Virus genome (UHGV): UHGV-0215671
DNA length: 13,254 nucleotides
Source: a virus
Direction: 5' to 3' (one strand)
Shown here: positions 12,353 through 13,254 of the stretch, piece by piece
How positions within the stretch are numbered: the first letter of the stretch is position 1
Layout of the letters: each line of letters begins with the position of its first letter
Translations under genes and position numbers: made by a program
Notes under the pieces: model-generated
The model's input: only the letters and a program-made list of their open reading frames with translations
Databases searched by the model: none
Told to the model about the DNA's origin: nothing

Positions 12353-12724
12353 TTATTTTTTGAGAGTCGCTACAGCAGAGAACGTTGGTTTGTTATCTGT
12401 CTGTGGTTGACCACCATTATCAGGGGTCTTCTTAGTATCTGCTGCAATTGCTTTCATCTCACCTGCTGAGTGAGTCATGATAGTTTTACCGACCTCAATC
12501 ATGCTCTTGATGGTTACGTCATCTGTGTTTAAACCGAACTCTGCAAGCTTAGCAGCATCCCTTGTAACAATCGCCTCAAACAACTTTGCAGCAAACTCAG
12601 CAGAATTATCAATGGTCAGTTGAGCTTTTACAAGTGAGCTTTTGTTACGAGAGCCTTTTGGTCTTCCAGATGGGTTTCCAGACTGGCCTTTTTTAAACTG
12701 GCCTTTGTTTGTTCTGTTTTTCAT
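12353..12724 (-). CDS. Small basic protein, 123 aa, with N-terminal KGQFKKGQSGNPSGRPKG motif
   Basis: Track ORF extends to 12757, but ATG 12724-12722 has the SD AAGAGG 7 nt upstream and is the start shared with the inverted duplicate at 13149. GNPxGRPKG-type N-terminus is recurrent in small phage proteins; function not known to me. Confidence 0.55.
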   Translation of the reverse strand: MKNRTNKGQFKKGQSGNPSGRPKGSRNKSSLVKAQLTIDNSAEFAAKLFEAIVTRDAAKLAEFGLNTDDVTIKSMIEVGKTIMTHSAGEMKAIAADTKKTPDNGGQPQTDNKPTFSAVATLKK

Positions 12725-12737
12725 TGGTATGCCTCTT
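12619..12737. repeat. Left arm of a perfect 119-bp inverted repeat
   Basis: Reverse complement of 12619-12737 equals 13136-13254 base for base (checked by hand over the whole span); covers the RBS AAGAGG and codons 1-35. Confidence 0.85.
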
Positions 12738-13135
12738 TCTAATTGGGAACTACACATAGATAATCCTCTTGTCTTCTGTAATTTTGAAAGAACAGGTACA
12801 GACCAATTTCAGAGGATGAATAGTAGAGTAACTCTACCCTTTTTGATTCCTTACAGTGATTGGTATTTTTACCTTTCTTCGGGTTGTTTGATTTTCTCAT
12901 TAAGTCTCCTTTGTAGAACAAGGCAGACCTACAGCTTTAAGTAAGATGGTACAGTAATCCATACAACAAGTCAAGAACTATTGCAAGTTAAAAAGTTGTT
13001 GACAAAGGACTTGACAAGGTGTAGGCTTATAAATACTTAGAAGATAACTTAAAAGGTTCCTCTAAAAAGGCTATTTAAACAGATATCTTTCTGGATATCT
13101 ATCTTTTATCTTAAAAGCCTTTTAAGAGGTCTTAT

Positions 13136-13254
13136 AAGAGGCATACCAATGAAAAACAGAACAAACAAAGGCCAGTTTAAAAAAGGCCAGTCTGGAAACC
13201 CATCTGGAAGACCAAAAGGCTCTCGTAACAAAAGCTCACTTGTAAAAGCTCAAC
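13136..13254. repeat. Right arm of the perfect inverted repeat, truncated by the window end
   Basis: See left arm; identity reaches the last base of the window, so true length is unknown. Confidence 0.85.
13149..13254 (+). CDS. Partial paralog of the 12353-12724 gene (first 35 codons), runs off the window
   Basis: ATG at 13149 preceded by AAGAGG; nucleotides 13149-13254 are the exact reverse complement of 12619-12724 and encode MKNRTNKGQFKKGQSGNPSGRPKGSRNKSSLVKAQ. Confidence 0.5.
   Translation, partial: MKNRTNKGQFKKGQSGNPSGRPKGSRNKSSLVKAQ

What the first reader, a model, noticed from the sequence alone, without database searches (positions are those of the whole stretch)
12619..13254. Perfect inverted duplication of a gene's RBS and first 35 codons, facing outward around a 398-bp spacer
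Positions 13136-13254 are the exact reverse complement of 12619-12737, so two divergent genes share an identical Shine-Dalgarno and identical first 35 residues (MKNRTNKGQFKKGQSGNPSGRPKG...). Perfect identity over at least 119 bp in a phage genome implies very recent duplication or ongoing gene conversion or recombination. Unlike Gin/Cin-type invertible segments, the constant 5' ends point outward from the spacer, so the spacer (12738-13135) would act as a divergent control region; it could also mark a rearrangement or assembly boundary.
Basis: seen in the sequence. Interest (0 to 1): 0.65.

Follow-up and report, generated by a model that had tools for sequence, protein, structure and literature searches.

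The report
Strand-switch chimera at a contig end
The perfect inverted repeat is real in the sequence, but it is the same single-copy stretch of a Felix O1-like phage genome read twice after the sequence flips strands 400 bases away, so it is most likely a chimeric or assembly artefact and not a duplicated gene.

Summary
Window 12619-12737 and 13136-13254 are 119 nt and 100% reverse-complementary, and the right arm ends on the last base of the window. The main interpretation (two divergent genes, recent duplication or gene conversion) does not hold.

The window is a Felixounavirus segment: portal, large terminase, 25 tRNAs, a DUF2828 RNA-binding protein and a 123-aa DUF5681 protein. In 253 phage records and 10 long metagenome contigs encoding the identical protein, the DUF5681 gene start is single-copy. 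It always follows the ~398-nt intergenic spacer on one strand.

A 42.7-kb public contig (Logan SRR11412986_3419) is 100% identical to window 856-12737 on its minus strand. It is also 100% identical to 12736-13254 on its plus strand, 400 nt further on. An 86.6-kb ENA scaffold matches both sides in the same way over the part fetched. Both contigs have the canonical layout.

So the window leaves the genome 13 nt upstream of the ATG, switches strand with a 2-nt TT overlap, and re-reads the spacer and gene start. The junction 25-mer is absent from all three collections searched by exact pattern.

This geometry is that of a classic inverted chimera. The breakpoint lies 6 nt from a conserved 71-nt hairpin. 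I rate it as not a real genome feature and of low interest.

The parts
12353..12724 (-). Genuine single-copy DUF5681 gene (123 aa), collinear with all reference genomes
   Evidence: Pfam PF18932 at 54.3 bits against a cut-off of 27.5. Full-length match to phrog_4114, E 1e-75. The identical protein is called in 10 long contigs.
12619..12737 (-). Left arm: the gene's RBS and first 35 codons in their true genomic context. This is the last stretch of the window that is collinear with the references.
   Evidence: Collinearity with 202 reference records stops at 12737.
12736..12737 (.). Junction: a 2-nt TT shared by both source positions (microhomology). The strand switch happens here.
   Evidence: The BLAST segments overlap at 12736-12737. 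Junction context is compared with the canonical sequence.
12738..13135 (+). Spacer. It is the canonical divergent intergenic region plus the first 20 nt of the neighbouring 77-aa gene (12738-12757, minus strand). It is correctly joined to the right arm, but inverted relative to what collinearity with the left arm requires.
   Evidence: Single copy, 97.7-100% identical, and always directly upstream of the gene start on the same strand in 14 loci and 250 records. The 77-aa gene start MCSSQLE is shown.
13136..13254 (+). Right arm: a second reading of the same single-copy DNA on the opposite strand, cut off by the end of the window
   Evidence: In L016 the arm occurs once (position 9535, plus strand only).
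13059..13129 (+). Conserved 71-nt imperfect hairpin, 6 nt from the breakpoint. It is a genuine element of the DUF5681 leader and a possible polymerase stall or template-switch site.
   Evidence: ssDNA fold -14.8 kcal/mol, z -4.36, 0 of 200 shuffles fold as well. Nearly invariant across Felixounavirus, Suspvirus and Mooglevirus, with one C-G to T-A compensatory pair.
12353..12757 (-). Chimeric ORF made by the junction: the first 7 codons of the 77-aa gene (MCSSQLE), then RGIP, then DUF5681, all in frame
   Evidence: Translation, compared with the L011 77-aa ORF.

Best explanation
The inverted repeat is not a feature of the phage genome. The window follows the minus strand of a Felix O1-like genome (portal, terminase, tRNA array, RNA-binding protein, DUF5681 gene) up to 13 nt upstream of the DUF5681 start codon. 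There it switches to the plus strand 400 nt further along. It then reads back through the intergenic region and into the same gene start until the sequence ends. The two 'copies' are therefore one piece of DNA read twice, which is why they are 100% identical. Only 2 nt are shared at the join, so this cannot be a repeat-induced mis-join in the assembly graph. A chimeric molecule or read carrying the junction must have existed, and the assembler followed it. Inferred but not shown: the chimera arose by template switching of a polymerase. This could have happened in vitro during amplification or library preparation, or as a rare replication by-product. It may have been favoured by stalling at the conserved 71-nt hairpin just ahead of the breakpoint. 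The contig probably stops where it does because the path began to retrace its own reverse complement.
For: (1) Window 856-12737 is 100% identical (11,882 nt, 0 mismatches, 0 gaps) to the minus strand of Logan contig SRR11412986_3419. Window 12736-13254 is 100% identical to the plus strand of the same contig. In the 21.4 kb fetched from that contig, the arm and the spacer each occur once.
(2) ENA scaffold_337 (86.6 kb) gives the same result over 3,385 and 519 nt.
(3) The exact 471-aa neighbouring protein occurs in only these two contigs of the collection, so they represent the same genotype as the window.
(4) None of 253 phage records matches across the junction, and each has the arm once. 202 records are collinear with window 1-12737 and stop there. 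Ten long contigs encoding the identical DUF5681 protein all have the canonical layout. Fourteen loci checked by BLAST have one arm, one spacer and no junction.
(5) The junction 25-mer has no exact match in JGI metagenome contigs or GTDB genomes, and the 46-mer spanning it has none in IMG/VR. E. coli genomes and plasmids hold no match covering it.
(6) The geometry fits the dominant class of MDA chimeras: opposite strands, joined segments 400 nt apart, 2-nt complementarity (PMC1855051).
(7) A strong conserved hairpin lies 6 nt from the breakpoint.
(8) The repeat ends exactly at the last base of the window.
Against: No reads are available, so junction coverage cannot be measured. A real minority or majority structure in the source sample is therefore not formally excluded. 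I could not identify the window's own source record. I do not know whether the window end is a contig end, or which assembler and library were used. A 2-nt overlap is weak evidence for template switching, since about 1 in 16 random joins would show it. The junction happens to fuse the start of the 77-aa gene in frame to DUF5681, which a selectionist could read as functional, although the chance of that is about 1 in 3.
Confidence: 0.88

Rival explanations
1. The molecules are real but not heritable. A subpopulation of rearranged (fold-back or snap-back, possibly defective) phage genomes forms in vivo. The replicative polymerase stalls at the conserved hairpin and switches to the opposite template 400 nt ahead, giving a large inverted duplication around a 398-nt unique centre.
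For: The junction cannot come from a graph mis-join because only 2 nt are shared, so physical chimeric DNA existed. A conserved hairpin sits 6 nt from the breakpoint. The same geometry is expected from in vivo template switching (general knowledge).
Against: Nothing separates this from an in vitro chimera. Two other assemblies of the same genotype run straight through both breakpoints without breaking, so any such species is a minority at best. No other Felixounavirus record shows the junction.
Confidence: 0.08
2. This strain carries a genuine heritable inverted duplication. A second, divergently oriented copy of the DUF5681 gene start replaces the 77-aa gene.
For: The sequence as given shows it. 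The junction creates an intact in-frame ORF.
Against: Contigs that are base-for-base identical on both sides have the canonical single copy. To the left of the junction the window continues with the normal downstream genes. A genome with this junction would therefore need DUF5681-side DNA on both sides of the spacer and would lose its link to the lysis and tail module. It is absent from 253 genomes and from all collections searched.
Confidence: 0.03
3. An invertible promoter switch: the 398-nt spacer flips between two inverted repeats by site-specific or homologous recombination.
For: Inverted repeats flank a promoter-bearing segment in the window.
Against: The canonical genome lacks the left repeat, so there is nothing to recombine with. 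Only one spacer orientation relative to the gene is seen in about 260 genomes. No recombinase was found among the nine window ORFs scanned or among the called neighbours.
Confidence: 0.01

Closest known systems
Inverted (strand-switch) chimeras of strand-displacement amplification and library preparation (Lasken & Stockwell 2007, PMC1855051)
   Same: The two joined segments map to opposite strands of one genome. They lie close together (400 nt, where most such chimeras are under 10 kb). There are 2 nt of complementarity at the join. The result is an inverted duplication around a unique segment.
   Different: It is not known whether this sample was amplified. Here the chimera is seen in an assembled contig and not in a single read.
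Canonical Felixounavirus divergent intergenic region between the 77-aa gene (Felix01p076 / wV8 gp044-like) and the DUF5681 gene (wV8 gp046-like)
   Same: The spacer and right arm are 97.7-100% identical to this region and in the same relative order. A promoter is annotated there in phage AYO145A.
   Different: In the window, the 77-aa-gene side is replaced by the reverse complement of the DUF5681 gene itself.
Gin/Cin/Hin invertible segments
   Same: Inverted repeats flank a short segment in a phage genome.
   Different: There is no second repeat in the normal genome and no invertase. Only one orientation is seen in nature, and the repeats contain gene 5' ends pointing outward.
Assembler-made terminal repeats (a contig ending when the path re-enters an already used node)
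   Same: The repeat is perfect and ends exactly at the last base of the sequence.
   Different: The assembler and k-mer size are unknown. 119 is one of MEGAHIT's default k values (from my own knowledge), but a pure unitig would break at the arm, so this remains an inference.

Membership tests
Felixounavirus (Ounavirinae) genome segment | Collinear nucleotide identity with reference genomes of the genus | tested here: met
   Window 1-12737 matches 202 records at at least 80% query coverage (96% in the listed top hits), with identity up to 98.2%. The spacer is 97-99.7% identical in most records.
DUF5681 protein family (PF18932) | Score above Pfam's gathering threshold | tested here: met
   54.3 bits against a cut-off of 27.5.
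Inverted strand-switch chimera (MDA or library type) | The two parts map to opposite strands of one reference sequence | tested here: met
   Minus strand, then plus strand, of L016 and L011 at 100% identity.
Inverted strand-switch chimera (MDA or library type) | Joined positions lie close together (under 10 kb), with at least 2 nt of complementarity at the junction | tested here: met
   400 nt apart, with a TT overlap at 12736-12737. The criteria come from PMC1855051.
Inverted strand-switch chimera (MDA or library type) | The junction is supported by only a minority of reads, and the sample was amplified or prepared by a chimera-prone method | not testable with these tools
   No reads or sample metadata are available. 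The run and sample accessions were not found in the paper library.
Invertible DNA switch (Gin/Cin/Hin type) | Two inverted repeats flank the segment in the normal genome | tested here: not met
   There is one copy of the arm in every related locus and record.
Invertible DNA switch (Gin/Cin/Hin type) | A recombinase gene lies nearby | tested here: not met
   No recombinase family was found among the nine window ORFs scanned, nor in the Pfam marks of genes within 3-10 kb in related contigs.
Invertible DNA switch (Gin/Cin/Hin type) | Both orientations are found in populations | tested here: not met
   The spacer is always in the same orientation relative to the DUF5681 gene.
Physical genome end or direct terminal repeat of Felixounavirus | The breakpoint coincides with the mapped terminal repeat | tested here: not met
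   The 581-bp terminal repeat of phage Pr103Blw (MW481326 1-581; PMC8303462) has no match in the window.
Assembler self-reverse-complement termination | The repeat arm ends at the contig end and its length equals the assembler's k | not testable with these tools
   The arm ends at the last base of the window. Whether that is a contig end, and what k was used, are unknown.

The most novel reading that the evidence does not exclude
The junction records real in vivo molecules. Felix O1-like phages would recurrently produce fold-back (inverted-dimer) genomes when replication stalls at the strongly conserved 71-nt hairpin in the DUF5681 leader and switches template. That would make the hairpin a natural fragile site, or even a replication or regulatory landmark.
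Probability: 0.07. Interest if true: 0.35.

Novelty: not a real feature. Interest (0 to 1): 0.07.

Why it matters
Read at face value, the repeat would suggest a recently duplicated phage gene or a new kind of outward-facing invertible control region. Showing that it is a strand-switch chimera at the end of an assembled sequence keeps a false paralogue and a false fusion ORF (MCSSQLE-RGIP-DUF5681) out of annotation. It also gives a simple test for similar cases: a perfect inverted repeat that runs into a sequence end should be compared with close reference genomes before it is interpreted. The only feature of possible biological interest nearby is the conserved hairpin in the DUF5681 leader.

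Tried and rejected
(1) Physical genome end or terminal repeat as the cause. The mapped 581-bp terminal repeat of Pr103Blw does not match the window, so I rejected this.

(2) Looking for the junction elsewhere. There were no exact matches in IMG/VR, JGI metagenomes or GTDB genomes. E. coli genomes and plasmids gave no match covering it.

(3) Looking for the window's own contig through exact-protein look-ups. It was not found. Only canonical contigs carry these proteins.

(4) Records with two places for the spacer as possible independent rearrangements. GE_vB_BS (MG969407.1, UNVERIFIED) turned out to contain a 34-kb direct duplication at 97.9% identity, with both loci canonical. The Si3 match simply runs to the end of its record, with a second place elsewhere in the record that I did not examine.

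(5) A second, diverged copy of the arm near the spacer in the references. A short-word BLAST found none.

(6) Graph mis-join through a shared k-mer. I rejected this because only 2 nt are shared at the join.

(7) A known structured RNA in the spacer. Rfam gave nothing meaningful; the best hit was a plant miRNA model at E 0.21.

(8) Sample metadata. The accessions SRR11412986 and SAMN14445460 were not found in the paper library.

(9) A sigma-70 promoter facing the right arm. My consensus scan found none on the plus strand of the spacer, although NC_028825 annotates one there. I left this open.

Full report
**Observation.** The repeat exists exactly as described. Arms 12619-12737 and 13136-13254 are 119 nt and 100% reverse-complementary, with 398 nt between them (rechecked by script). 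Each arm carries the AAGAGG Shine-Dalgarno, the ATG (12724 on the minus strand, 13149 on the plus strand) and 35 codons of MKNRTNKGQFKKGQSGNPSGRPKG.... Chance cannot give this: by my arithmetic about 1e-64 such pairs are expected in 13 kb. The right arm ends on the very last base of the window, so its length is set by where the data stop. The inner boundary is sharp, because 12738 and 13135 do not pair.

**What the window is.** The ORFs on the minus strand are:
- a Mu-type portal (2128-3603);
- a T4-type large terminase (3611-5227);
- DUF7217 and DUF7338 proteins;
- a DUF2828/DUF7788 'RNA-binding' protein (10856-12271);
- a 123-aa DUF5681 protein (12353-12724).

Between them lie 25 tRNA genes (5657-10690; 24 by Rfam). 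Megablast places the window in Felixounavirus, the Felix O1-like phages of Escherichia, Salmonella and Shigella. 202 records are collinear with window 1-12737 at up to 98.2% identity, and every listed top alignment stops at 12737.

**The break.** With a query spanning the repeat, none of 253 matching phage records matches across 12737/12738. Mapping onto phage SP116 shows two segments. Window 10109-12737 runs down the minus strand to reference position 6402. Window 12736-13254 then restarts at reference position 6001 on the plus strand. The two segments share only the dinucleotide TT.

In the references there is one DUF5681 gene. It is preceded by a ~400-nt intergenic region, and beyond that lies a leftward 77-aa gene, followed by further hypothetical genes and the tail and endolysin genes. 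The spacer plus right arm is therefore the natural arrangement. The left arm is natural too. The unnatural part is the join between them.

**Breadth of the canonical layout.**
- The spacer is single-copy in nearly all of the 253 records (261 places).
- Ten long contigs (64-90 kb) from ENA, Logan and NCBI that encode exactly the same 123-aa protein all show the canonical order.
- BLAST with short words over 14 loci finds one arm and one spacer in each, always adjacent on the same strand, and no junction.
- The layout is kept in the sister genera Suspvirus and Mooglevirus.
- The junction 25-mer has no exact match in JGI metagenome contigs or GTDB genomes, and the 46-mer spanning it has none in IMG/VR.
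- E. coli complete genomes and PLSDB plasmids hold nothing that covers it.

**The decisive comparison.** The exact 471-aa DUF2828 protein of the window occurs in only two contigs of the large collection. One is Logan SRR11412986_3419 (42.7 kb). It is 100% identical to window 856-12737 (11,882 nt, no mismatch, no gap) on its minus strand. It is also 100% identical to window 12736-13254 on its plus strand. In the 21.4 kb fetched from it, the arm and the spacer each occur once. The other is ENA scaffold_337 (86.6 kb), which behaves the same way over the 6.4 kb fetched. So the same genotype, assembled independently, has the canonical single-copy structure and runs uninterrupted through both breakpoints. 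The window's last 517 bases are a second reading of DNA that lies 400 nt beyond the point where collinearity ends, on the other strand. That explains the perfect identity: the two arms are one sequence.

**How it most likely arose.** Only 2 nt are shared at the join, so no k-mer graph could have mis-joined these positions. DNA or reads carrying the junction must have existed. That step is inference, but a firm one. The geometry is opposite strands, 400 nt apart, with 2-nt complementarity. This matches the predominant class of chimeras made by strand-displacing polymerases, where a displaced 3' end reprimes on a nearby strand of the same sense. In that study 85% of chimeras were inverted, most joined segments less than 10 kb apart, and most had at least 2 nt of complementarity (PMC1855051).

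Whether this sample was amplified is unknown. Other library artefacts, or rare in vivo template switching, would give the same product. The breakpoint at 13135/13136 lies 6 nt from a strong imperfect hairpin at 13059-13129 (-14.8 kcal/mol as ssDNA, z -4.4). Such a structure is a plausible stall site for a polymerase copying towards it, but I did not show that it stalled one.

The sequence ends exactly when the arm is complete. This fits an assembler that stops when its path starts to retrace its own reverse complement. 119 is one of MEGAHIT's default k values (my own knowledge). However, a pure unitig should break at the arm, so I treat the assembler part as an untested inference.

**Alternatives.**
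- The mapped 581-bp direct terminal repeat of a Felixounavirus (Pr103Blw; PMC8303462) does not match the window. The break is therefore not at that mapped physical genome end.
- An invertible switch is excluded for the normal genome. There is no second repeat, no recombinase, and only one orientation in nature.
- A heritable inverted duplication in this strain is contradicted by the identical canonical contigs. It would also leave the genome with DUF5681-side DNA on both sides of the spacer.
- A minority of real fold-back molecules cannot be excluded without reads.
- The one record that seemed to hold the spacer twice in a suggestive way (GE_vB_BS, UNVERIFIED) is a 34-kb direct duplication with both loci canonical.

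**Side observations.** The junction fuses the first seven codons of the 77-aa gene (MCSSQLE) in frame, through RGIP, to DUF5681. This is the 134-aa ORF at 12353-12757, and it is an annotation trap. The 71-nt hairpin is almost invariant across three genera. Its flanks vary more, and it shows one compensatory C-G to T-A pair with a T-G intermediate. It matches no Rfam family. It is a genuine, uncharacterised element of the DUF5681 leader.

**Verdict.** The feature is not a real part of the phage genome. My confidence in this is about 0.88, and interest is low.

Noticed in passing
window 13059-13129: A 71-nt imperfect hairpin lies between the annotated promoter and the RBS of the DUF5681 gene. 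It is nearly invariant across Felixounavirus, Suspvirus and Mooglevirus, while its flanks vary more. One stem pair covaries (C-G to T-A, with T-G in Sf13). It matches no Rfam family. It could be a leader RNA structure or a protein-binding palindrome (the core is GATATCTTTCTGGATATC).
   Followed up: partly
window 12353-12757 (minus strand): The junction creates an in-frame chimeric ORF of 134 aa: MCSSQLE (the start of the neighbouring 77-aa gene), then RGIP, then the full DUF5681 protein. A gene caller could report it as a longer variant.
   Followed up: yes
window 5657-10690: The tRNA array has 25 genes by ARAGORN and 24 by Rfam, and the two sets differ. Rfam alone calls a weak tRNA at 8918-8996 (31.7 bits). 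ARAGORN alone calls tRNA-Tyr at 10110-10197 and tRNA-Met at 10361-10437.
   Followed up: partly
window 9829-9856, 9919-9939, 10335-10362, 10502-10529: A 21-28-nt motif (TTGCTGAATACGGTCTTCTGC) occurs four times inside the tRNA array. Two copies lie immediately 3' of tRNA genes on the minus strand. It may be a processing or termination signal, or a tRNA remnant.
   Followed up: no
window 6735-6774, 8332-8421, 9572-9715: Three hairpin-forming inverted repeats lie between tRNA genes: 18 nt at 94%, 26 nt at 85%, and 22 nt at 95% with a 100-nt loop. A related direct-repeat family TTTAAGGACTCTCGTAAGAATCCTTAAA occurs at 6741, 9005 and 9944.
   Followed up: no
L021/L022 (GenBank MG969407.1, Salmonella phage GE_vB_BS, UNVERIFIED): This 90-kb record contains a 34-kb direct repeat at 97.9% identity (17639-51519 against 56280-90041). 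It looks like two related phage genomes concatenated, not one genome.
   Followed up: yes
window 10856-12271; L011, L016: The exact 471-aa DUF2828/DUF7788 (TROVE-like, VWA) protein is found in only two contigs of the large protein collection: Logan SRR11412986 and ENA ERZ28657994 (SAMN14445460). These may be the same sample assembled twice, which points to where the window's phage came from.
   Followed up: partly
window 12999-13034: Two tandem TTGACA boxes and a TATAAAT are conserved across genera upstream of the hairpin. NC_028825 annotates a promoter here, but the spacings (11 and 23 nt) do not fit a standard sigma-70 promoter, and my consensus scan did not call it.
   Followed up: no
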